A stretch of 64,000 nt of DNA from Naegleria gruberi (taxonomy: Eukaryota), in assembly GCA_000004985.1 (NCBI GenBank), contig GG738848.1. The stretch is one strand, 5' to 3'. The notes beneath the pieces were generated by a model that was not told the origin of the DNA, did no database searches, and saw only the letters and a program-made list of their open reading frames with translations. Every line of letters begins with the position of its first letter. Within the stretch, counting starts at the first letter, position 1. The translations under genes and the position numbers were made by a program. Positions 3,652 to 48,049 of the stretch are shown piece after piece.

Positions 3652-6256
3652 TTATTGCAAGATGAGATGAACTGTAATTTCCTCTTGTTCTGAAGAAATA
3701 TTAAGGATTCTCATCTTTTCATTCGATTTTAATAGAGAGGCTAGAGGAGTAGTCAAGTATGATTGCTCGTTATGTTCTGAGAATATTGATGGAGCAAATA
3801 AAGAACCAGTTTCTCCCTTGGAATTTGTAATGAAAATTGTGTCCATCTCCTGATTGAGTGTTCTAGCTTCCTTCACCAATTCCTCAATGGTATCTGTAAA
3901 TTTCATATGAATTTCTTTAATATTATCAGAAATGTTCTCATAATGAATGTCTAAATCATCCAAACAGATATTATACTTGATATAGGAAAGTTTCTTTGAA
4001 TATTGATTCAACTGTTGAAGATATTGAAGTAAATGAAAACATTGAATTGATGCTGCCACGGATGTGGTAGTAATCAGAGCTGGATGAATTGCTCCAGCTA
4101 TTTTCTTTGCTTTGAAAAACTCAATTGGCTTACAAAGTTTCCTCCCAAAAAGGAAAAAGTTTTCTGCCCTAATATTGGAAGTGTCTTGAACGAACTGAAC
4201 CATCAAATCATCATCTTTTTCATATACTAAAGGTTTGAATGGTGAATTGACCTTCATATTTGAGTGAGTCATCTCTTCACTTTTTTCAGGAATAGTTATT
4301 TGGTGGTGAAACTTATTTTCATATTGTTGCAATTCTTCCCTTGTCAATGGCATGAATGGAAATTCAACACTTGATACAGATCTTGTTGATGGAATCAAAT
4401 CATTATTATCAAGATGTCTGTACAGTAAATAAATAGTAGTATTCATAAATGAGAAGTGACTCTCCTTTTCATAATTCAATTTAGCAGGACGTGGAGTAAA
4501 CTCTACCGATTCATTAAGGAAATATTGAATCTTGTTATCTTCATTCAATTCATCCAAATTGCAAAGTGTATTTTCTTGGAATGGACTGACAAATAACTGA
4601 TTAAACACCTCACGTGCAAGCACATAGAGGTGATTATTGACATTTCCAAGTTCAACCCTTTCTAATAATCTTGGGACCATTCTTGTGAAATAATCTTCGT
4701 ATTTCATTTTACTCCACATGATTAAATCTTCATGTTTTTCAGGATTGCTTTTCAGTGTGCAGGATGTTCTGATCTCTTCTCTTTCTTCCTCCTCTGTTTT
4801 TTGATTCTCATTGTGGAAGGGCTTTGTTGAGGCGTAGAGATGGAATGAATTTTGTGAGTAAAATCCTTGAGTTCCAGAGTTGATGAATGGAATTTTGTAA
4901 AGATTACACTTGTGAGAGAGGAATTGTCTTGCATGGTCATTATCTACTGCACCAAAAACAACGTCAATGGAAGACCAGAATGAATCTTGATTAAGATATG
5001 ATTCACTGTCACTGGTCAACTTTTCTTCAAACGATTCAATATTGACCTTTGAATTAAAGTAGTTGACCATCTTTTTCAATATTTGAGATTTCTTTGATCC
5101 AATATCACTTTGAGAGAAGAAAAATTGACGATTAAGATTTGTCAACTCAATACTATCCATATCTGTCACGTACATTGAACCTCTAGTAGTACATGCATTC
5201 ATGACCATCAAGTTCTTTACCAATTCACAACCTATTGCTCCAGCACCAACAATTAAAATATTCAAATCCTCAAGACCTAGCTCTTGAATTTTGAGTTGGC
5301 TTGGAGCCAAAGATAATTGATCAAAAAAGAAATAATATGGGTGCTTTTCTTTTGACAGCTCCAAAATCTGACACAGAATCTCATTTGCTGTAATTGCAGC
5401 AAAAAAACTTGTCTGTTTGTTCATGAGTAATAAAATACTTTGTAAAAGCTTACCATTGCATAATTGGAAGTTTCTCTAACTTTCTCGTGTTGAATGAATT
5501 TTTCATGATAGAAATTTAACAATTGATCTTTAACTTCATTCTCGTCATATGAGTCAATTGGATTTTCCATTTCTTCCATCTTTTCTGTAAATAAATCAAA
5601 CAAGGTGTTGACATCCATATTGTCAATAAAATTAGAAACAAGAGTTGAGAATTCTTCTAATGAAGTGTTCTCAAATATTGCATTGAGAATAGGACCATCT
5701 AAACAGCTTCTGTGAAAATGAGGAATTTGCTCCGTTTCACTTTTTGGAATAGTCAATATTCTTCCAATAAGCCCACTCACTTGAACACTAACTATTGTAT
5801 TAGAAAGATCATTAAAATTTGATTTTTCAATTCCACATTTAACAATACACTTTTAACCATTAGAGATAAAACCTAAACTTTCACTTACTGAGAACTGTTT
5901 CAAATTATTAGAAACTTCATCTGCTGAAACTTGCTTCACATTTGAGTCAGGGTTTAATCGGTGAATTTCTTCTTGGAAATTTTCTCCTTTCACATAACTC
6001 TGATCAAAATTGTAAGCTATTAGAATAGAAGAAGAATACTTACATCAAAATGGATTGTTGACAAATCTCCTTCTTCAATAGCAACAAGAGCCATGGCTTT
6101 GAATCCTAAAAGGATTAAATTTTTGGTCAACTCGACCAACATTGAACAACTTTGAGTATTCCTTTGGTTGTACTCAATCATCAAGTTACTATTATGAATT
6201 TTACTTGTAGAATCCTGCCCTAAAGCATACTCTTGCCTGTCCCATAAGTTTGACAT
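3652..6256 (-). CDS. Single-chain ubiquitin-like activating enzyme E1 (inactive N-terminal plus active C-terminal adenylation halves; catalytic Cys domain); join(6256..6044,5999..5889,5849..5454,5412..3652), about 826 aa
   Basis: Exon 1 has the E1 N-terminal motif LWDRQEYALGQ followed by a degenerate nucleotide-binding region (LVELTKNLILLGFKAMALV), i.e. an inactive adenylation-like half. The large exon has LNILIVGAGAIGCELVKNL (GxGxxG), IELTNLNRQFFF, and a catalytic-Cys block CTLKSNPEKHEDLIMWSK resembling UBA1/UBA2 PICTLKNFP / PGCTIRNTP. Three short introns (44, 39 and 41 nt) use GTAAGT/GTAAGC donors. The ORF-track start MNKQ at 5424 lies inside the last intron. Confidence 0.75.
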
Positions 6257-6335: not shown

Positions 6336-7064
6336 ATGTCTTCATCACGTTTGAGAAGGATCAAAAACGATCTTACAGAGGTACAACAAAATGCTTCTCT
6401 TCCTCCTTTATTAACATTTACACAGACTGAAAATTCTAGTATCATTCTCTTTAGTTTTAACTTGGACGAAACATCAAGTCTTTATGCAGGTGCCAATTTT
6501 CAGATTGAAGTTTCATTCCCAGAAAATTATCCCCACAAACCTCCTTCTTTCACATTCAAACACACCGTTCCATATCATTTCCTTGTTGATCAAATTAATG
6601 GAAAGGTAATTGGCCTCTCAAAACTTTCGACATGGTCAATGCTATTCACTTTACAATCAATATTTTCTGATCTCTACTCAAAATTTGTAAATGAACCAAG
6701 TCAAGAAGATGCTGAACAATGTGGTGTTAATGAGGATATGATTACAGAATATAGAAACACTCCACAAATCTACAGAGAAAAAGCAAGAAACTCTGTCAGA
6801 AAGTTGCAATTAACTGTAATTGAAAATCCTCTTGATTCAAATGAAATGAAGGATGAAGAATCTACTGAATCGAATGAAACGATTCATGAAGTAGTAGTTG
6901 ATGAAAATAACTTGCAGCCAAGTAATCCAATTTTGGAACAACCACTTGATTCAAGATTTGTTAATTCCAGTAATCACCACAAAATTGTTTCTCATGAAGA
7001 TGAATGGAATTATGAATACGGCTTGTATCATTTAAATATGAGATATGGAAATTACAATCAATAA
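6336..7064 (+). CDS. UBC-fold E2 variant (UEV-like, no catalytic Cys) with an acidic C-terminal extension
   Basis: UBC-domain blocks RLRRIKNDL...FQIEVSFPENYPHKPPSFTFKHTVPYHFLVDQINGKVIGLSKLSTWSMLFTLQSIFSDLY align with E2 FxIxFPxDYPFKPPKVxFxTxIYHPNIxxxGxICLDIL. The HPN triad is replaced by YHF and the Cys position by Gly/Ile. It is divergently transcribed from the E1 gene. Confidence 0.6.
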   Translation: MSSSRLRRIKNDLTEVQQNASLPPLLTFTQTENSSIILFSFNLDETSSLYAGANFQIEVSFPENYPHKPPSFTFKHTVPYHFLVDQINGKVIGLSKLSTWSMLFTLQSIFSDLYSKFVNEPSQEDAEQCGVNEDMITEYRNTPQIYREKARNSVRKLQLTVIENPLDSNEMKDEESTESNETIHEVVVDENNLQPSNPILEQPLDSRFVNSSNHHKIVSHEDEWNYEYGLYHLNMRYGNYNQ

Positions 7065-7114
7065 ATATTTTATTCAGAATATATTGTACATTTGTTTTTG
7101 TAACAGATTATTGC

Positions 7115-7945
7115 TTATTGAAATAACAATCTATTTTCAATTTCGTGCAAATCCTCTTTGGTTTGTGTTGGAGCTACAGGCAATGAACACTTGACATATG
7201 CACCATGAGTTGTTCCAGTTGCTTCTGTACCACTACACTTGAACGGCCATTTACCAGTATTTGTATTGTAAAGAGACAAACAAGCATGACAAAAAACAGC
7301 ATTACATCTTGGACAGTGAGTATGCTTGCACCTGTCTAACTTTCCATCAGATGATGCTTGTCTTTCACAATAATTTCCACAATTAACACATAATCTTGCC
7401 AAAGGAACAACTATTTCTTGATTGGATAGATTAATCTTGGCAGTTACAGAGGATCTAGTTGTCAAGGCAGTGATCAAGGGATCTTCATTAGAACATCCAT
7501 TTCCACAAATTCCTTCACCATTCTTCCATTGATTGCCACAAATGAAACAAAAGTCAAATTTGCAAACATCACAACTCAATCTAACATCGCTGGTGTTTCT
7601 TCTAATGAAGTGATTCTTACACTTATTACAAGTAGTTGCTCTCTTGATCTTGTAATGAATATCATTCAATGCTGAATCAAACTCTTCAATTTTATCATAA
7701 TCGATATTGGCTTGATTGACCCAATTCATTGAAATGGTTTCGCCACAATTAGTTTCATCACTTCCAGTTACATTCTTATTGGAACCATAACAAACCATTG
7801 CTGTTCCTTTCGACAAGTTTTGTAAATTTTCAACAAGACAGTCTTGACAAATATAATGTTGACATTTAAGTTTCAATAATTGTTGAGTGCCAAGACAATA
7901 GAAGCATTTAGACATTTTTTTGACTTGAGAGTTCCCAAATGTCAC
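7115..7945 (-). CDS. Cys-rich RBR-like (RING1-IBR-RING2) putative ubiquitin-family E3 ligase, 276 aa
   Basis: Three Cys/His clusters: CFYCLGTQQLLKLKCQHYICQDC (RING-like C3HC4 start); CNKCKNHFIRR...CDVCKFDFCFICGNQW (IBR-like); CVNCGNYCERQASSDGKLDRCKHTHCPRCNAVFCHAC (RING2-like). About 30 Cys in 276 aa. The assignment is by spacing pattern only. Confidence 0.5.
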   Translation of the reverse strand: MTFGNSQVKKMSKCFYCLGTQQLLKLKCQHYICQDCLVENLQNLSKGTAMVCYGSNKNVTGSDETNCGETISMNWVNQANIDYDKIEEFDSALNDIHYKIKRATTCNKCKNHFIRRNTSDVRLSCDVCKFDFCFICGNQWKNGEGICGNGCSNEDPLITALTTRSSVTAKINLSNQEIVVPLARLCVNCGNYCERQASSDGKLDRCKHTHCPRCNAVFCHACLSLYNTNTGKWPFKCSGTEATGTTHGAYVKCSLPVAPTQTKEDLHEIENRLLFQ

Positions 7946-7975
7946 TAGTCAAGCTGCACTTCAAACAGCTTTTTC

Positions 7976-8008
7976 GAAACGTGATGAAACTTATACACTC
8001 AAACGTGA
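7976..8008. promoter_or_regulatory. Two copies of the (G/C)AAACGTGA element (7976-7984 GAAACGTGA; 8000-8008 CAAACGTGA) in the divergent promoter between the RBR-like gene and the UBL gene
   Basis: Seen in sequence: ttttcGAAACGTGAtgaaacttatacactCAAACGTGAtacacc. Confidence 0.4.
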
Positions 8009-8086
8009 TACACCCCAAAACGCAACACAAGAATTCAATAAATAGATTTTAAATCACAGAATATTAATATCTCAATTCATAAAAAA

Positions 8087-8356
8087 ATGTCCACTCCATT
8101 AAACGTTTCCATTCAACAAGGTGTCCATACTAAAGTACTCTCAATCAGTCAAACTGCAACAGTGAAAGACCTTGCAACCATGTACAAATCCCAAACTGAA
8201 CTTAAAGAATTCTACTTTTTGCATAGAACCACCAGACTTGAAGAAACTACTATTGTTTCTCATATTATTAAACATCCAAACCAAAAGTTAGTAGTTGTTG
8301 GAATTGCTAAAGGTGGTTCTGAAGAAGGAAGAGCATCAATCTTGTCTCTTATTTAA
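8087..8356 (+). CDS. Small intronless ubiquitin-like (beta-grasp-like) protein of 89 aa with an internal Gly-Gly 11 residues before the C-terminus (putative UBL precursor)
   Basis: MSTPLNVSIQQGVHTKVLSISQTATVKDLATMYKSQTELKEFYFLHRTTRLEETTIVSHIIKHPNQKLVVVGIAKGG|SEEGRASILSLI. Alternating hydrophobic beta-strand patterns and a central helix fit a ubiquitin-like beta-grasp. The GG is followed by a short tail, as in precursor UBLs. It sits between the E3-like and E2-like genes. Confidence 0.45.
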   Translation: MSTPLNVSIQQGVHTKVLSISQTATVKDLATMYKSQTELKEFYFLHRTTRLEETTIVSHIIKHPNQKLVVVGIAKGGSEEGRASILSLI

Positions 8357-8511
8357 ACCTAGTTGAGTTTCGTCAAGATATTGAAATAAACTCTCTTTTT
8401 TCAATTAAATCGAAATATTAATCATTTCTGCTGCTTATGAAATCAAGCCGTGTGATCAAACGAGAATCTAATTTTGGTGCCACTGGTGCAAATGATTAAG
8501 TTAGGAAGTCT

Positions 8512-8520
8512 GAAACGTGA
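8512..8520. promoter_or_regulatory. GAAACGTGA element 17 nt upstream of the E2-like gene ATG
   Basis: Seen in sequence: gtctGAAACGTGAaaaaaacaattaaaaaATG. Confidence 0.4.
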
Positions 8521-8536
8521 AAAAAACAATTAAAAA

Positions 8537-9016
8537 ATGTCAAAACAAAGAAGAATTCTGAATGAAGTTGCTGAAGCCAACAAGAACAATCATCCAAAGA
8601 TCAAATTTGAAATTTCCCAAGAGAATTTACATGGTTGGAATTGTTCATTTAAAGGTCCAGATAACACTCCCTATCAAGATTTGCAATTTGAAGGAACTCT
8701 CTGTCTTCCGTAAGTTTAGTTTGGATTAGTTTTGCTAATATTTTGCTTGGTTAGAAATGATTTTCCTTCATCAAGACCAACCTTTGTATTCTCTTCCAAA
8801 ACAATTCCATACCACATCAATGTAGACGATAGTGGTGTAGCTTCTGTCTCTTTGCAATGGACTCCCACACTCACAGGAATAGTTTTTGTCGAAAGTGTAA
8901 TTAACATGTTAGAAACTCCACAACCAACTTGTTCTGTTAGTGATGAAAGATTCAAATTATATCAAAGTAACAAAGATCAATATCAAAAACAAGCCAGCAA
9001 ATTCCTCCAAGAATAA
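8537..9016 (+). CDS. UBC-fold E2-like protein, about 151 aa, with Ser at the catalytic-Cys position and HIN instead of HPN; join(8537..8709,8755..9016)
   Basis: Exon 1 MSKQRRILNEVAEANKNNHPKIKFEIS...GWNCSFKGPDNTPYQDLQFEGTLCL (UBC N-terminal helix and the GPxxTPYEGG block). A 45-nt intron (GTAAGT...TTAG) in phase 2 joins it to PNDFPSSRPTFVFSSKTIPYHINVDDSGVASVSLQWTPTLTGIVFVESVINMLETPQP. This aligns to IYHPNINSNGSICLDIL...WSPALTISKVLLSI with C replaced by S. Confidence 0.6.
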
Positions 9017-9044
9017 ACGTGATCATTGTAAACTTGAAACGTGA
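9015..9044. promoter_or_regulatory. Two copies of the AAACGTGA element (9015-9022 and 9036-9044) immediately upstream of the USP gene ATG (9062); the first overlaps the stop codon of the upstream E2-like gene
   Basis: Seen in sequence: gaaTAAACGTGAtcattgtaaacttGAAACGTGAgacgaatcttaaaaaaaATG. Confidence 0.4.
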
Positions 9045-9061
9045 GACGAATCTTAAAAAAA

Positions 9062-43174: not shown

Positions 43175-44887
43175 TTATTTCTTCTCTTCTTCAATCTTAA
43201 TTTCGTCTGATTTATCTTTGGCATTATCACTGGTTGTACTTTTATCATCATCTTCCTTCTCTTCCTCAAGCTTTTTCTTTTCAAATTCCTTTCTCAAATT
43301 ATCAACTTCAACCAAATACTCTTCAACATGATTAAGACAATCTTCCTTTTCATAGATATATCTCATCAAGTAGGTTTGAACTTCAGCAGTGGTCAACTTG
43401 TGTTCAGGAATCAATTCAGAAATCTTGGCTCCCAATTCTTCATCCTTAAAGAATCTGGCAGCCATTTGTCTGATTTGATCCTTAGTAGAGTTTTCAAACT
43501 TGATTTTGAAATCAATTCTTCCAGGTCTAACAAGAGCAGGATCCAATCTATCAATGTGATTTGTAGTCATAAAGATAATTCTAGGGAATTGAGAGAATGA
43601 AGCAACACCATCGAGAGCATTCAATAATCCTGAAAAACTAACTCCTTGAACATCTGCAGAGGCCTTTCTATTTTCATTGAATGCTGCATCAATATCTTCC
43701 AATAGAACGATACCTCTTTTTGGGAGCTTTGTTAACATCTTTTGCAATTTGGAATCGTCCAAGCTCTTATCATTCAAACTAACTGAAAATAAACAACACT
43801 TCAATTTGGCAGCCATAGCCAAAACTAAACTTGATTTACCAGAACCAGGAGGACCATAACAAAGATACCCTCTCTGATAATTGAGACTATTTTCCCTGTA
43901 GAAGATTTCATTACTCATAAATCTATCCATGTCCTTAATCAAATTTTGCTTAATGTCTTCTTCCAAATAGACAGTATCAAATGAACGATAAGGTCTATCA
44001 CACAACTTTTCCCAATCTCTATAATAATCAGTGGAGAGAGTATAGACTGAAGTGACACCCTTCTCACTTTGGAAATAACATTCAATGGCTTCTTGAAGAA
44101 TATTCTTCAAAATTTCCTTTCCATTCCATGCAGAAACAGTAAGAACAAGTTTTGTAGTATCTTCCTTGTCACCATTCTTATCCTTTTCAAAACTTGGGTC
44201 GATACGTTGAATGGTAATCTTGTGACCTTTGAAATAAAAGCCATGTGAACCAGGACCTGGAACAAGTTGTAAAACTAGATCATTTTCATTGTCTTCCTCA
44301 TTGTGACGATGATTATTTGAGAGATCATTCTTGGCATGAACTGTCAGATGCTTGGCATTTTGAAAATGTTCAACAGTACCCAACCAATGCATCAAACAAA
44401 CATAAATAGTATTGAACTTGTAATTTTCCTTTTCCTTCACTTCAACAGAATAATTGAAAATATCTCTAATGTAATAATAGATTTCTTCAAGTTTGTTCAC
44501 AACATAGGTCCAAACTTTACCAAACACAACCAATGCAATACCGGCAGTGAAAATATTATTACTCGTCATGAAAGAAAACATGAAGGAAATGAAAAATTGA
44601 AACAAGGCAGATTGGACCACAAAACTTGGAAAACAAACCAAAACCAAAGATTCCAATCCCTTGTGAATATATTGATCAGTCATGGTAGAATTCCATATCA
44701 TTGAACCATTATTTCCGGTGCCACCAAAAGGAGAGGAAGCATTAAAAGAAGAACCAAAAAACATTGATCCCGTAAAGAATTGACTCAAGAATGAATTTGA
44801 TTCAAAGAAACCACCACCCTGCGTTAAAGTAGTCAAGGGATTATGCTCAGAGGAGAGCAATGTACTGAGAGGAGAATCAGTGGCCAT
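43175..44887 (-). CDS. BCS1: Mitochondrial chaperone BCS1 (AAA+ ATPase) with a Lys/Glu-rich C-terminal extension
   Basis: BCS1 N-terminal domain, then Walker A GYLCYGPPGSGKSSLVLAMA, Walker B VLLEDIDAAF, and the arginine-finger region LVRPGRIDFKI. Confidence 0.85.
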   Translation of the reverse strand: MATDSPLSTLLSSEHNPLTTLTQGGGFFESNSFLSQFFTGSMFFGSSFNASSPFGGTGNNGSMIWNSTMTDQYIHKGLESLVLVCFPSFVVQSALFQFFISFMFSFMTSNNIFTAGIALVVFGKVWTYVVNKLEEIYYYIRDIFNYSVEVKEKENYKFNTIYVCLMHWLGTVEHFQNAKHLTVHAKNDLSNNHRHNEEDNENDLVLQLVPGPGSHGFYFKGHKITIQRIDPSFEKDKNGDKEDTTKLVLTVSAWNGKEILKNILQEAIECYFQSEKGVTSVYTLSTDYYRDWEKLCDRPYRSFDTVYLEEDIKQNLIKDMDRFMSNEIFYRENSLNYQRGYLCYGPPGSGKSSLVLAMAAKLKCCLFSVSLNDKSLDDSKLQKMLTKLPKRGIVLLEDIDAAFNENRKASADVQGVSFSGLLNALDGVASFSQFPRIIFMTTNHIDRLDPALVRPGRIDFKIKFENSTKDQIRQMAARFFKDEELGAKISELIPEHKLTTAEVQTYLMRYIYEKEDCLNHVEEYLVEVDNLRKEFEKKKLEEEKEDDDKSTTSDNAKDKSDEIKIEEEKK

Positions 44888-45170: not shown

Positions 45171-46082
45171 ATGTCTTTTTGCTACCTTGATGTGTTACCT
45201 CCAGAAATCATTACACTAATTCTCCAGCACTTGTCCTTCTCGGAATTGGCTGCACTTTTGAAACGTGAACCGCAATTTTACCAATTAATTTCTGCTAGTG
45301 ATTTGATGTATGCATTTACATGTACATTCACTCATATTTATTCGAATCAAAAAGAAATGGAAAATGCGCCAAGTTGGATTGCATCAAGAGTGTGGAAAAA
45401 AAGAATACCCCTACCAAAAGAACATATTCACCAATTGACCAAATTTCAAAAATTATTAGCAACAACTAGAAATGATTCCTCCAAATACGAAAAGCATTTG
45501 AAACAATTTCACTATCATCGAATTAAATTATTAATGAGTGCTTGGAAGTACAATCTGAAAACAGATATCAGGTTTTTTAGGCAGAGTGGAATTGAAAATT
45601 ATTTACAATATTTTGAAAATCATCTCACTTGGTTTATGGATTACGATATTCAAGCAAATACACGAGAGCTGAGTTATCTGTTGGTTGAATTACCGATTGA
45701 GCTTTGTGGGTCGATTTTTTGGACATTGAAACATCCTAATTATTATACTATTTTGGAACCTTCAAATTTGGAAAGATTTTGTAAAGTATTGCCCAAGTAT
45801 TTTTACATATTACTCAAATTGGGTCATCCAAGATTTTGTCATAGATTTCCCTCATGGAAACATTCATCACGGCTATCCATATTGATCGAACAAAATTCTG
45901 ATGTGATAGTGAGAGTTCCAAATGGAGTTTGTTTACTTTACTTTATTTCCATGTTTGAGAGAGTTAACCCAAGACAAATTCTATCAAAATTGAGTAGTTC
46001 ACCATCGGTTATTAAGAACGGTGCTCTTTTACAGGAAATGTTGGAAGAATTTGAATTTCCCCTCAAGTACTGGTGGGATTAG
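45171..46082 (+). CDS. F-box-like domain protein (paralog of 47156..48049)
   Basis: N-terminal LDVLPPEIITLILQHLSFSELAALLKREPQFYQLI fits an F-box (LPxEIxxxIxxxL). Confidence 0.45.
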   Translation: MSFCYLDVLPPEIITLILQHLSFSELAALLKREPQFYQLISASDLMYAFTCTFTHIYSNQKEMENAPSWIASRVWKKRIPLPKEHIHQLTKFQKLLATTRNDSSKYEKHLKQFHYHRIKLLMSAWKYNLKTDIRFFRQSGIENYLQYFENHLTWFMDYDIQANTRELSYLLVELPIELCGSIFWTLKHPNYYTILEPSNLERFCKVLPKYFYILLKLGHPRFCHRFPSWKHSSRLSILIEQNSDVIVRVPNGVCLLYFISMFERVNPRQILSKLSSSPSVIKNGALLQEMLEEFEFPLKYWWD

Positions 46083-47155: not shown

Positions 47156-48049
47156 ATGTCATCATTGCAACTTCCGAGAGAAATATTTCATGAAATCTTA
47201 TTGTTTCTTCCTCCGATCAGTATGAAAGAGCTAATAATGGTTTCTAATAGAGATTTTCATAATTTGATAAATGATGTAACATTTCACAAATTATATTTAA
47301 TTAATTTATTCAAAATTCCTAACAACAAGCTTTCTTTATCAAATATATTAGAAAATTTAGATATTCCATTTGATTTAAACTATTCTAAAGTATTTAAATT
47401 ATTGTTAGAATGCACTTTCCAATACAAGGATCATATCTTTGATTCTTCCGAATTAATTTTTACAAATTTCAACAAAATCCCAAAAGAAAATATTGAATTT
47501 ACAAAAAGAGTTCAACTTCCATACATGAAAGAAAATCTAATTCTTTGTTATGGAATGAGAATTCCCTTCAAATGTTGTGGAATTAATAATTCGAAACTAA
47601 TCTTTATCAAATCATTGAAAGAATCCAAATTTGAGAAATTTGGATTAGAAACTTTCATATGCGAAATGGAGATGATTCTCTTTTTGGAAAATGGATTCCC
47701 ACTCGAATTATCAATCTATTGCCAAGATCATCGATATCATGGCAGGTGGATTGTTAAAATTTATGGCCAGGATTTTATTGACCTGAAACGGTCTGAAGGT
47801 TTTTGGGATTTTGAAATAGTTCAGGAAGAAATGATGAAGCTCATGGAGAGCATTTTGTTTAGAGATTTGAAATTCGAATTGCAAGAGTGCGAGAAAGAGT
47901 TGGTTGTTGGATGGAAACGGACAAATATGCAAAAATTGAAATTGACGATAATGGTTAATTGGTTTTATATTGCTACCTTTTCATTCTTGGACATGGATGA
48001 ACCATCAGACAAATTTTACATTATCCATGCACAGCCTGGCCAGGAATAG
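47156..48049 (+). CDS. F-box-like domain protein (paralog of 45171..46082)
   Basis: N-terminal LPREIFHEILLFLPPISMKELIMVSNRDFHNLI F-box-like motif; similar length and organisation to the 45171 gene. Confidence 0.45.
   Translation: MSSLQLPREIFHEILLFLPPISMKELIMVSNRDFHNLINDVTFHKLYLINLFKIPNNKLSLSNILENLDIPFDLNYSKVFKLLLECTFQYKDHIFDSSELIFTNFNKIPKENIEFTKRVQLPYMKENLILCYGMRIPFKCCGINNSKLIFIKSLKESKFEKFGLETFICEMEMILFLENGFPLELSIYCQDHRYHGRWIVKIYGQDFIDLKRSEGFWDFEIVQEEMMKLMESILFRDLKFELQECEKELVVGWKRTNMQKLKLTIMVNWFYIATFSFLDMDEPSDKFYIIHAQPGQE

What the first reader, a model, noticed from the sequence alone, without database searches (positions are those of the whole stretch)
6336..9016. Both UBC-fold proteins in the cluster lack the catalytic cysteine (one carries Ser at that position)
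The 6336 product aligns to the E2 active-site region as YHFLVDQINGKVIGLSKL (HPN replaced by YHF; Cys by Gly/Ile). The 8537 product aligns as IPYHINVDDSGVASVSL against IYHPNINSNGSICLDIL (HPN replaced by HIN; Cys by Ser). Either both are UEV-type cofactors, as in Mms2/Uev1 pairing with a separate active E2, or the Ser-containing protein forms an oxyester intermediate. The latter would be mechanistically unusual. RBR E3s normally need a thioester-charged E2, so the partner E2 may be encoded elsewhere.
Basis: partly seen in the sequence, partly recalled or inferred. Interest (0 to 1): 0.6.

Follow-up and report, generated by a model that had tools for sequence, protein, structure and literature searches.

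The report
Cysteine-less E2 pair in Naegleria cluster
Two ubiquitin-conjugating-enzyme (E2) look-alikes in a six-gene Naegleria gruberi cluster really do lack the usual catalytic cysteine, but both keep a cysteine at the same nearby spot in the catalytic cleft, so they may be enzymes with a moved active site rather than dead cofactors.

Summary
The window is Naegleria gruberi. UBC1 (6336-7064, 242 aa) and UBC2 (8537-8709 + 8755-9016, 144 aa) are complete, confidently folded E2 cores. The position of the catalytic Cys holds Ile92 in UBC1 and Ser88 in UBC2. HPN is HFL in UBC1 and HIN in UBC2.

The only Cys in UBC1 (C129) and C117 of UBC2 sit at the same place: 10 residues before the helix-3 Tyr, and 4 residues before helix 3 in both AlphaFold models. 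This is the "CES/D" gate residue of the catalytic cleft (UbcH5 D117, Rad6 S120).

The neighbouring genes keep their catalytic residues: a Uba1-type E1 (Cys458), an RBR-like E3 (Cys196-x-His198) and a USP protease. There is also an 89-aa candidate modifier with GG at residues 76-77. No other E2 lies in the window. No orthologue of E1 or either E2 was found in any collection searched.

Best reading (about 0.4): these are the cascade's own E2s, with the nucleophile moved to the CES/D cysteine. Main rival (about 0.35): UEV/COP10-like non-catalytic partners. A Ser oxyester is unlikely (about 0.08). Only biochemistry can decide.

The parts
6336..7064 (+). UBC1: 242-aa E2-fold protein (core about residues 1-163, acidic/low-complexity tail). 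It has a single Cys in the whole protein.
   Evidence: ORF. Pfam UQ_con 4.3e-17. Identical to database protein P0041. AF2 pLDDT 85. Foldseek top hits are UbcH5/Rad6/UbcH7. Cys count.
6609..6611 (+). UBC1 codon ATT = Ile92, occupying the canonical catalytic-Cys position.
   Evidence: Profile alignment to UBE2D2. DSSP strand K90-V91 lies immediately before it. Codon.
6720..6722 (+). UBC1 codon TGT = Cys129, the only Cys of the protein. It lies at the CES/D-equivalent position, 10 residues before Tyr139 and 4 residues before helix 3.
8537..8709 (+). UBC2 exon 1 (residues 1-58, the last codon split by the intron).
   Evidence: Splice model with GTAAGT donor at 8710 and AG acceptor ending at 8754.
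8755..9016 (+). UBC2 exon 2 through the stop codon. The whole product is 144 aa.
   Evidence: Pfam UQ_con 1.4e-22 over profile 1-138/140. AF2 pLDDT 94. Foldseek hits.
8843..8845 (+). UBC2 codon TCT = Ser88 at the canonical catalytic-Cys position.
   Evidence: Profile alignment. It is 10 residues after His78, as in UbcH5 H75 to C85. DSSP strand V86-A87 lies just before it. Codon.
8930..8932 (+). UBC2 codon TGT = Cys117 in the CES/D column (UbcH5 D117). It is 10 residues before Tyr127 and 4 residues before helix 3.
3652..6256 (-). Uba1-type E1, 826 aa, four exons (6256-6044, 5999-5889, 5849-5454, 5412-3652). The catalytic Cys458 is retained.
   Evidence: Gene model. Pfam ThiF 3e-42 and SCCH 8.9e-9. 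98% identical to the annotated N. gruberi E1. Cys458 aligns with yeast Uba1's catalytic CTLRS motif.
7115..7915 (-). RBR-like E3 (266 aa from the first ATG): RING1, IBR, and RING2 with C196-K-H198-T-H-C201.
   Evidence: Weak Pfam IBR hits, 1e-5. Weak ARIH2 match, E 0.02, with RING1 and IBR/RING2 segments. The RING2 Cys-x-His assignment is by eye against the GCNHMxC motif.
8087..8356 (+). 89-aa candidate ubiquitin-like modifier precursor: Gly-Gly at residues 76-77, followed by a 12-residue tail.
   Evidence: ORF. The GG position is read from the sequence. There is no detectable sequence similarity to ubiquitin or PDB chains, so the assignment is inferred from size, GG and context.
9062..10414 (+). 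USP-type deubiquitinase/processing protease (introns 9275-9315 and 9349-9394) with a Cys box (NTCYLNS) and a His box (YGHYVS).
   Evidence: Gene model. Pfam UCH 4.1e-15 over profile 1-235/254.
7977..9044 (+). Five of the six cluster copies of the octamer AAACGTGA, at 7977, 8001, 8513, 9015 and 9037. They lie 17-103 nt upstream of the Ubl, UBC2 and USP start codons. The sixth is at 6345-6352 on the minus strand, 89 nt upstream of the E1 ATG.
   Evidence: Seven exact copies in 64 kb against 1.6 expected, and 0 of 100 shuffles reach 7. Contexts and distances.

Best explanation
UBC1 and UBC2 are the dedicated E2s of a lineage-specific Naegleria gruberi conjugation cascade. The proposed order is: Ubl precursor, USP processing to expose Gly-Gly, activation by a Uba1-type E1, transfer to the E2, transfer to the RBR E3, then the target.

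They have lost the canonical active-site cysteine (Ile92 and Ser88). The nucleophile is proposed to have moved to a cysteine in the loop before helix 3 (Cys129 and Cys117). This is the CES/D gate position that lines the same catalytic cleft.

The E1 Cys458~Ubl thioester would be passed to this cysteine and then by transthiolation to RBR Cys196. An E2 that feeds only a Cys-dependent E3 does not need the Asp or Ser normally found at that position; UbcH7 has His there.

Shown here: the fold, the loss of the canonical Cys, the shared position of the replacement Cys, and retention of the catalytic residues in E1 and USP. The RBR Cys-His pair was assigned by eye. Inferred: that the shared Cys is charged, the order of transfer, and the Ubl identity.
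For: 1. Both proteins are complete E2 cores.

2. UBC1 has one Cys in 242 residues, and it aligns with one of UBC2's three. BLASTP and MAFFT agree on this. The register is ungapped: Cys to helix-3 Tyr is 10 residues in UBC1, UBC2 and UBE2D2 (D117 to Y127). In both independent AF2 models the Cys ends a short helical turn 4 residues before helix 3.

3. That column is the CES/D site of the catalytic cleft. It contacts the attacking lysine next to the catalytic Cys. PMC4604453 reports that it is not conserved in Cys-less E2-fold proteins. Conservation of a Cys there across 24% identity is therefore unexpected for dead E2s.

4. The Pro that normally follows the site is replaced by Ser or Gly in a shared C-[SG]-V-[SN]-[DE]-[ED] motif.

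5. Context: E1 Cys458 aligns with the Uba1 catalytic Cys. RBR RING2 keeps Cys-x-His (and inspection), and RBRs take ubiquitin from an E2 thioester (PMC3940038). The USP is intact. No other E2 is present in 64 kb.

6. The genes share a cluster-specific upstream octamer.

7. The same swap occurs sporadically elsewhere. In P0067 the canonical site is Ser and the only Cys is C117, in 'NCSV'. P0070, P0198 and P0054 have Ala or Lys at the canonical site with a Cys at CES/D, and it is the only Cys of P0198. P0119 shows it too.
Against: No E2 with a relocated nucleophile has been demonstrated, to my knowledge.

No orthologue exists in any collection searched, so selection on the Cys rests on one paralogue comparison.

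I could not obtain coordinates, so the Cys117-to-Ser88 distance and the exposure of the Cys were not measured.

UBC1 carries a 4-residue insertion in this loop, so equivalence depends on anchoring from helix 3.

Among 47 other Cys-less E2 domains, column 117 is not a notable Cys hot spot: 3 Cys, against 11 at column 21 and 8 at column 76. P0203 and P0204, close relatives of the P0054 group, lack the Cys.

Arabidopsis COP10, recalled from memory, has Ser at the site plus a nearby Cys (HCN) and is regarded as non-catalytic.

UBC2 scores higher against Rad6 (61.7 bits) than against UBC1 (35.8 bits), so sister-paralogue status is not proven.
Confidence: 0.4

Rival explanations
1. Both proteins are non-catalytic E2 variants, like UEV1/Mms2 or COP10. 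They would bind the Ubl, the RBR or an active E2 and act as cofactors or specificity adaptors. The thioester-forming E2 would be a canonical enzyme encoded elsewhere in the genome, and the shared Cys would be incidental or have a non-catalytic role.
For: Loss of the canonical Cys together with a degraded HPN motif is the hallmark of pseudo-E2s. Cys-less E2 domains are common: 47 of 158 domains retrieved by a profile that lacks the Cys. They include a P0203/P0204 pair with no cleft Cys at all. UBC1 also gives a partial Pfam RWD match (2e-5). Every characterised Cys-less E2-fold protein I know of is non-catalytic.
Against: A dedicated, highly divergent E1 (27% identical to UBA1) and an orphan modifier normally have a dedicated E2. 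The cluster would then hold two cofactors and no enzyme.

Both proteins keep helices 3-4 and match active E2 structures best. Mms2/Uev1-type UEVs lack those helices (from my own knowledge).

This reading does not explain why UBC1's sole Cys coincides with a UBC2 Cys at a catalytic-cleft position that is reported to be unconstrained in inactive E2s.
Confidence: 0.35
2. UBC2 uses Ser88 as the nucleophile and carries the Ubl as an oxyester. UBC1 would be its inactive partner.
For: Ser88 occupies the Cys85 column, and the HPN Asn is kept (HIN). Engineered E2 Cys-to-Ser mutants can be charged by E1 to form oxyesters (from my own knowledge). Natural Ser-for-Cys E2 variants recur in the databases, for example P0044, P0045, P0055 and P0067.
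Against: Oxyester E2 conjugates are slow to form and to discharge, and are used as stable mimics. Transfer from an oxyester to the RBR Cys would be energetically uphill.

UBC2 has a 3-residue deletion right after Ser88 that removes the short helix framing the active site. The idea gives no role to UBC1 (Ile92) or to the shared Cys.
Confidence: 0.08
3. The cluster is an evolutionary relic or a recently acquired, decaying set of genes. The two E2 genes would no longer be functional, so the missing Cys has no mechanistic meaning.
For: The cluster is found in one genome only, with no orthologues in any collection searched. All members are very divergent from their families.
Against: All six reading frames are intact with clean GT..AG introns. 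The E2 folds are predicted with high confidence. The E1 and USP catalytic motifs are preserved, as is the RBR Cys-His pair assigned by eye. A shared upstream octamer is maintained before the genes.
Confidence: 0.1
4. Gene-model artefact: the true transcripts are spliced differently and encode a canonical active site.
For: The public model P0042 splices UBC2 differently, directly after Cys117-Ser118, into the USP gene.
Against: The whole HxN-to-Trp segment of each gene lies inside one uninterrupted exon. No alternative E2-like exon exists in the window (tblastn). The P0042 model removes E2 helices 3-4 and the USP Cys box, both of which are encoded in frame in the skipped DNA.
Confidence: 0.03

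Closest known systems
UEV proteins (Mms2/Uev1A, TSG101 UEV domain)
   Same: An E2-derived fold without the catalytic cysteine. HPN is degraded. They act within ubiquitin pathways.
   Different: Mms2/Uev1-type UEVs lack helices 3-4 and work with a separate active E2, Ubc13 (from my own knowledge). UBC1 and UBC2 keep the complete four-helix core and match active E2 structures best. They sit beside their own E1, E3, Ubl and DUB. They also share a Cys at a cleft position reported to be unconstrained in UEVs.
COP10 (plant/animal full-length E2 variant, Cys replaced by Ser)
   Same: A full-length UbcH5-like core with Ser at the catalytic position, as in UBC2. Many COP10-like 'HCN + Ser' sequences were retrieved by the profile.
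   Different: As I recall its sequence, COP10 is closely related to UbcH5 and keeps Ser-Pro at the CES/D position. Its extra Cys is in the HPN motif (HCN), not at CES/D. UBC1 and UBC2 are orphan sequences, about 25% identical to any E2. COP10 acts in a CDD complex (PMC4661828), not in a dedicated E1/E3 cluster.
UbcH7 (UBE2L3) with RBR/HECT E3s
   Same: An E2 that only hands ubiquitin to a cysteine on the E3 and lacks an acidic CES/D residue (His in UbcH7). An RBR-like E3 with a RING2 Cys-x-His lies next to the two genes here.
   Different: UbcH7 has the canonical Cys86 and an intact HPN motif. The Naegleria proteins have neither.
Dedicated Ubl cascades (UBA7-UBE2L6-ISG15, UBA6-USE1-FAT10)
   Same: A Uba1-type single-chain E1 paired with its own E2 and a non-ubiquitin modifier that needs C-terminal processing.
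   Different: Those E2s are canonical. The genes are not clustered. The modifiers are recognisably ubiquitin-like in sequence, whereas the Naegleria 89-aa protein is not.
CES/D site of canonical E2s (Rad6 S120, UbcH5 D117, Ubc9 D127)
   Same: The shared Cys of UBC1 and UBC2 occupies this column, in the same register relative to helix 3.
   Different: In active E2s the residue is Asp or a phosphorylatable Ser, and is almost always followed by Pro (PMC4604453). Here it is Cys followed by Ser or Gly.

Membership tests
UBC/E2 superfamily (Pfam UQ_con PF00179) | Significant full-length match to the UQ_con profile | tested here: met
   UBC1 4.3e-17, 62.5 bits, profile 3-138/140. UBC2 1.4e-22, 80.3 bits, profile 1-138/140. 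Both are above the 27-bit cut-off.
UBC/E2 superfamily (Pfam UQ_con PF00179) | Alpha/beta E2 core with an N-terminal helix, a four-stranded sheet and three C-terminal helices | tested here: met
   AF2 pLDDT 94.2 (UBC2) and 85.1 (UBC1), with those elements present. Foldseek TM 0.87-0.92 (UBC2) and 0.68-0.76 (UBC1) to UbcH5, Rad6, Ubc13, UBE2E and UbcH7.
Catalytically active E2 (canonical) | Cysteine at the canonical active-site position (UbcH5 C85) | tested here: not met
   Ile92 in UBC1 and Ser88 in UBC2. There is no Cys between the HxN His and the invariant Trp.
Catalytically active E2 (canonical) | HPN motif | tested here: not met
   HFL in UBC1 and HIN in UBC2. The His is kept in both, and the Asn only in UBC2.
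Catalytically active E2 (canonical) | Asp or Ser at the CES/D site, followed by Pro | tested here: not met
   Cys-Ser in UBC2 and Cys-Gly in UBC1. The feature is defined in PMC4604453.
Catalytically active E2 (any) | Forms an E1-dependent thioester with its modifier | not testable with these tools
   This needs an in-vitro charging assay.
UEV (Mms2/Uev1/TSG101) | E2-like fold lacking the catalytic Cys | tested here: met
UEV (Mms2/Uev1/TSG101) | Truncated core without helices 3-4, or a match to a UEV profile | tested here: not met
   Helices 3 and 4 are present in both models. No Pfam UEV hit at E<=1 for UBC1 or at E<=0.01 for UBC2. That Mms2/Uev1 lack these helices is from my own knowledge.
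UEV (Mms2/Uev1/TSG101) | Works as a heterodimer with an active E2 | not testable with these tools
   No multimer prediction or interaction data were available.
RWD domain | Match to the RWD profile as the best description of the domain | tested here: inconclusive
   UBC1 residues 35-78 match RWD at 2e-5 (25.2 bits, cut-off 22.8). This is partial and far weaker than UQ_con. UBC2 gives no RWD hit.
RBR E3 ligase (neighbouring gene, context for the mechanism) | RING1-IBR-RING2 with a catalytic Cys in RING2 | tested here: inconclusive
   Pfam IBR_1 scores 25.6 bits and IBR 21.7 bits, both below their cut-offs of 27 and 24.3. The ARIH2 match has E 0.02, with segments for RING1 and the IBR/RING2 pair. 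The C196-K-H198-T-H-C201 pattern matches GCNHMxC by eye.

The most novel reading that the evidence does not exclude
These would be the first E2 enzymes whose thioester-forming cysteine has migrated out of the canonical position, into the CES/D gate position of the same catalytic cleft. They would operate in a self-contained, co-regulated six-gene eukaryotic cascade (E1, two E2s, RBR E3, orphan Ubl, USP). The same Cys85-to-Cys117 swap may have arisen independently in a few other protist, fungal and plant E2 variants, such as P0067, P0198/P0070/P0054 and P0119.
Probability: 0.38. Interest if true: 0.8.

Novelty: new variant of a known kind. Interest (0 to 1): 0.55.

Why it matters
E2-fold proteins without the canonical cysteine are routinely filed as inactive. 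If the shared cleft cysteine is charged, that rule fails. The E2 active site would be shown to be movable, and many "pseudo-E2s" in databases would deserve re-examination.

It would also show how much geometric slack E1-to-E2 and E2-to-RBR transthiolation can tolerate.

Independently of mechanism, a compact, apparently co-regulated eukaryotic gene cluster encoding a whole orphan Ubl cascade is unusual. All its parts are small enough to express, so the system is directly testable.

Tried and rejected
**Exact-sequence look-ups.** UBC1, the Ubl, the RBR and the annotated E1 gave no contig on record. I therefore could not get independent N. gruberi context or other strains.

**Homologue searches.**
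- The word-based search with UBC2 found nothing.
- The exhaustive HMMER search with a UBC1+UBC2 profile returned only the two N. gruberi proteins below 1e-30, then generic E2s from 7e-19.
- The E1 search gave only N. gruberi (98%), then canonical UBA1 at 27%.
- Scans of viral contigs and metagenome contigs with E1 found no relatives.
- The UBC-profile metagenome scan found one unrelated Cys-less E2 exon, L001, with 'PYHINVD' and no cleft Cys.
- There is no support for a viral origin.

**Test for a general pattern.** I asked whether Cys at CES/D is a general feature of Cys-less E2 domains. It is not enriched by column count. Two relatives of the P0054 group lack it. I therefore treat the parallels as anecdotes. 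The sample was also biased, because my query profile contains that Cys.

**The Ubl.** No similarity to ubiquitin or to any PDB chain was found.

**Other points.**
- Cys36 and Cys56 of UBC2 lie on strands 2 and 4, away from the cleft, and are not shared with UBC1. I rejected them as candidates.
- UBE2S Cys118, seen among the Foldseek hits, lies in helix 2 and is not equivalent.
- Literature searches for this cluster, or for an engineered D117C E2, found nothing.
- I could not measure inter-residue distances, because model coordinates are not exposed.


Full report
**Source and gene content.** The window is AT-rich eukaryotic DNA (about 33% GC) with short GT..AG introns. The E1 encoded at 3652-6256 is 98% identical to the annotated "ubiquitin activating enzyme E1 [Naegleria gruberi]". 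The next best hits are ordinary UBA1 proteins at about 27% identity.

Six genes lie between a cathepsin-like gene and a hexosaminidase-like gene:
- E1, minus strand, four exons, 826 aa
- UBC1, 6336-7064, plus strand
- an RBR-like protein, 7115-7915, minus strand
- an 89-aa ORF, 8087-8356, plus strand
- UBC2, 8537-8709 + 8755-9016, plus strand
- a USP-type protease, 9062-10414, plus strand

**Checking the observation.** Both quoted peptides are present.
- UBC1 matches Pfam UQ_con at 4.3e-17.
- Spliced UBC2 matches at 1.4e-22 across profile positions 1-138 of 140.
- AlphaFold models, built on a 65-sequence alignment of E2 relatives, are confident: pLDDT 94.2 for UBC2 and 85.1 for UBC1.
- Their best PDB neighbours are active class-I E2 cores (UbcH5, Rad6, Ubc13, UBE2E, UbcH7). 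UEV and RWD structures are not among them.

I built an HMM from 68 E2 sequences plus human UBE2D2 and read off the reference columns.

| Reference column | UBC1 | UBC2 |
|---|---|---|
| HPN motif | HFL | HIN |
| Cys85 | Ile92 | Ser88 |

DSSP on the models supports this register. The two-residue strand that precedes the catalytic Cys in E2s is K90-V91 in UBC1 and V86-A87 in UBC2. A pairwise alignment to UBE2A slides UBC2 by two residues, because three residues are deleted just after the site. No register places a Cys there.

UBC1 has a single cysteine in 242 residues, Cys129. UBC2 has three: 36, 56 and 117. BLASTP and MAFFT both align UBC1 Cys129 with UBC2 Cys117.
- The register needs no gap. 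The Cys lies 10 residues before the conserved helix-3 Tyr in UBC1 (Y139) and in UBC2 (Y127). UBE2D2 Asp117 lies the same distance before Y127.
- In the two independently predicted models, the Cys ends a short helical turn exactly four residues before helix 3.
- The HMM places UBC2 Cys117 directly in the Asp117 column. It places the UBC1 Cys in an insertion two residues before column 119, which is the same position counted back from helix 3.

This column is the "CES/D" site (Rad6 Ser120, Ubc9 Asp127). It lines the catalytic cleft and contacts the attacking lysine next to the catalytic Cys. It is normally followed by Pro, and it is reported not to be conserved in Cys-less E2-fold proteins such as UEVs (PMC4604453). 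In the Naegleria pair the Pro is replaced, giving a shared C-[SG]-V-[SN]-[DE]-[ED] motif.

With 1 and 3 cysteines in about 144 aligned positions, a chance coincidence of the sole UBC1 Cys with a UBC2 Cys is about 2%. That it should also be one of the few cleft-lining positions is less likely still. This estimate is my own rough arithmetic, not a formal test.

**Context.**
- The E1 keeps its nucleotide-binding motifs. Its Cys458 aligns with the catalytic Cys of yeast Uba1, CTLKS against CTLRS.
- The RBR-like protein matches only weakly: Pfam IBR hits are below their cut-offs, and the ARIH2 match has E 0.02. Its C-terminal zinc-binding module reads C196-K-H198-T-H-C201. By eye this matches the RING2 catalytic GC-N-H-M-x-C motif.
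- RBR ligases accept ubiquitin from an E2 thioester onto that Cys (PMC3940038).
- The USP has both its Cys box and its His box.
- The 89-aa ORF has Gly-Gly at residues 76-77 followed by 12 more residues, as expected for a modifier precursor. It shows no sequence similarity to ubiquitin or any PDB chain, so its identity is inferred only.
- tblastn finds no other E2 in the 64 kb.
- The octamer AAACGTGA occurs seven times in the window against 1.6 expected. Six copies lie inside the cluster, in sense orientation 17-103 nt upstream of the E1, Ubl, UBC2 and USP start codons. This suggests co-regulation.

**Relatives.** None were found.
- A profile of UBC1+UBC2 was searched by HMMER against 1.84 billion representatives. 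It recovered only the two N. gruberi proteins below 1e-30, followed by generic E2s.
- Word-based, viral and metagenome searches added nothing useful.
- The public model of UBC2 (P0042) splices out helices 3-4 and the USP Cys box to fuse the two genes. The skipped DNA encodes both elements in frame, so I regard that model as wrong.

**Parallels elsewhere.** The profile, which lacks the canonical Cys, pulled out many Cys-less E2 domains (47 of 158). A few show the same swap:
- P0067, from a metagenome, is 31% identical to UBC2. It has Ser at the canonical site, and its only Cys is at position 117, within 'NCSV'.
- P0070, P0198 and P0054 are 42% identical between P0054 and P0070. They have Ala or Lys at the canonical site and a Cys at CES/D. 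It is the only Cys of P0198.
- A yam protein, P0119, has Ala at the site and 'ECC' in the loop.

The pattern is not general.
- Two fungal relatives of the P0054 group have no such Cys.
- Column 117 is not a Cys hot spot among Cys-less domains.
- My query profile itself rewards that Cys.

I count these cases as anecdotes.

**Interpretation.** Three readings survive.
- **(a) Relocated nucleophile, about 0.4.** The cascade's own E2s are charged on the CES/D cysteine and pass the Ubl to the RBR Cys. An E2 that serves only a Cys-dependent E3 does not need Asp or Ser at that position, as in UbcH7, which has His there (from my own knowledge). This reading explains the shared Cys and the absence of any other E2 beside a dedicated, very divergent E1. 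It has no precedent that I know of.
- **(b) UEV/COP10-like cofactors, about 0.35.** The real E2 would be encoded elsewhere. This is the default for Cys-less E2 folds. It leaves the conserved cleft Cys unexplained, along with the complete E2 core and a cluster holding two cofactors and no enzyme.
- **(c) Ser88 oxyester, about 0.08.** This is chemically possible for UBC2 only. It is unfavourable upstream of an E3 thioester, and it gives no role to UBC1.

Gene decay (about 0.1) and a gene-model artefact (about 0.03) are less likely, for the reasons given under the rival explanations.

**Limits.** I could not access model coordinates, so no distances were measured. Orthologues are lacking, so selection cannot be quantified. 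There is no expression evidence. The decisive experiment is an E1-dependent charging assay with the C117A, C129A and S88A mutants.

Noticed in passing
window 6345-6352(-), 7977, 8001, 8513, 9015, 9037 (+); also 45261(+): The octamer AAACGTGA occurs 7 times in 64 kb against 1.6 expected. Six copies are inside the cluster, in sense orientation 17-103 nt upstream of the E1, Ubl, UBC2 and USP start codons. This is a candidate shared cis-regulatory element. It contains the ACGTG core typical of bHLH-type sites (that resemblance is from memory). The seventh copy lies inside an F-box-like ORF.
   Followed up: partly
window 8537-10414: The public N. gruberi protein model P0042 (299 aa) fuses UBC2 to the USP. 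It splices from just after Cys117-Ser118 into USP exon 2. This deletes E2 helices 3-4, the UBC2 stop codon and the USP Cys box. The skipped DNA encodes all of these in frame, so the two are most likely separate genes only 45 nt apart.
   Followed up: partly
window 3652-6256 (-): The annotated E1 (P0001) is 773 aa. My four-exon model gives 826 aa with a degenerate N-terminal first adenylation-like repeat. No Pfam FCCH hit was seen. The segment from Cys458 to the SNIRAEN motif is about 190 residues, and from memory the SCCH region of Uba1 is longer. No match to the Pfam E1_UFD profile was reported, so the C-terminal approximately 110 residues are unassigned.
   Followed up: no
window 8087-8356 (+): The 89-aa ORF has GG at residues 76-77 plus a 12-residue tail. 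It has no detectable sequence similarity to ubiquitin or any solved structure, and its beta-grasp fold is unverified.
   Followed up: partly
database proteins P0044, P0045, P0091, P0099, P0071, P0057: This is a recurrent two-domain architecture in sequences with AT-rich, protist-like composition. An N-terminal UbcH5-like domain has the catalytic Cys replaced by Ser or Thr ('ISLDI') in most members (P0057 keeps the Cys). It is followed by a second, degenerate E2/RWD-like domain and often a long coiled-coil tail.
   Followed up: no
L002 8001-8585 and neighbours (JGI metagenome contig, 31.8 kb): P0198 is a Cys-less E2 variant with Ala at the canonical site, and its only Cys is at the CES/D position. 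It sits between a protein-kinase gene and an NPHP3_N/NACHT (NLR-type) gene, and the NACHT gene is also its neighbour on a second contig (L003). No E1 or E3 lies nearby.
   Followed up: no
L001 537-800 and 2593-2844 (metagenome contig WLWI01023865.1): An intron-containing E2-like gene shares the 'PYHINVD' motif of UBC2 and also lacks the canonical Cys ('GAVHMAL'). It has no Cys at the CES/D position. The contig also carries sequence that looked transposon-like to me, which I did not test. It appears unrelated to the Naegleria cluster.
   Followed up: no
window 45171-46082 and 47156-48049 (+): Two ORFs have N-terminal F-box-like motifs (LPPEIITLILQHLS and LPREIFHEILLFLP). These were judged by eye only. 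A BCS1-like AAA ATPase ORF lies at 43175-44887 (-).
   Followed up: no
window 12824-16615 (-): This is a multi-exon gene region. It encodes NHL-like repeats, many EGF/tenascin-like Cys-rich repeats, a transmembrane segment and a protein-kinase domain, so it is probably a receptor-kinase-like protein. These were judged by eye from the ORF translations.
   Followed up: no
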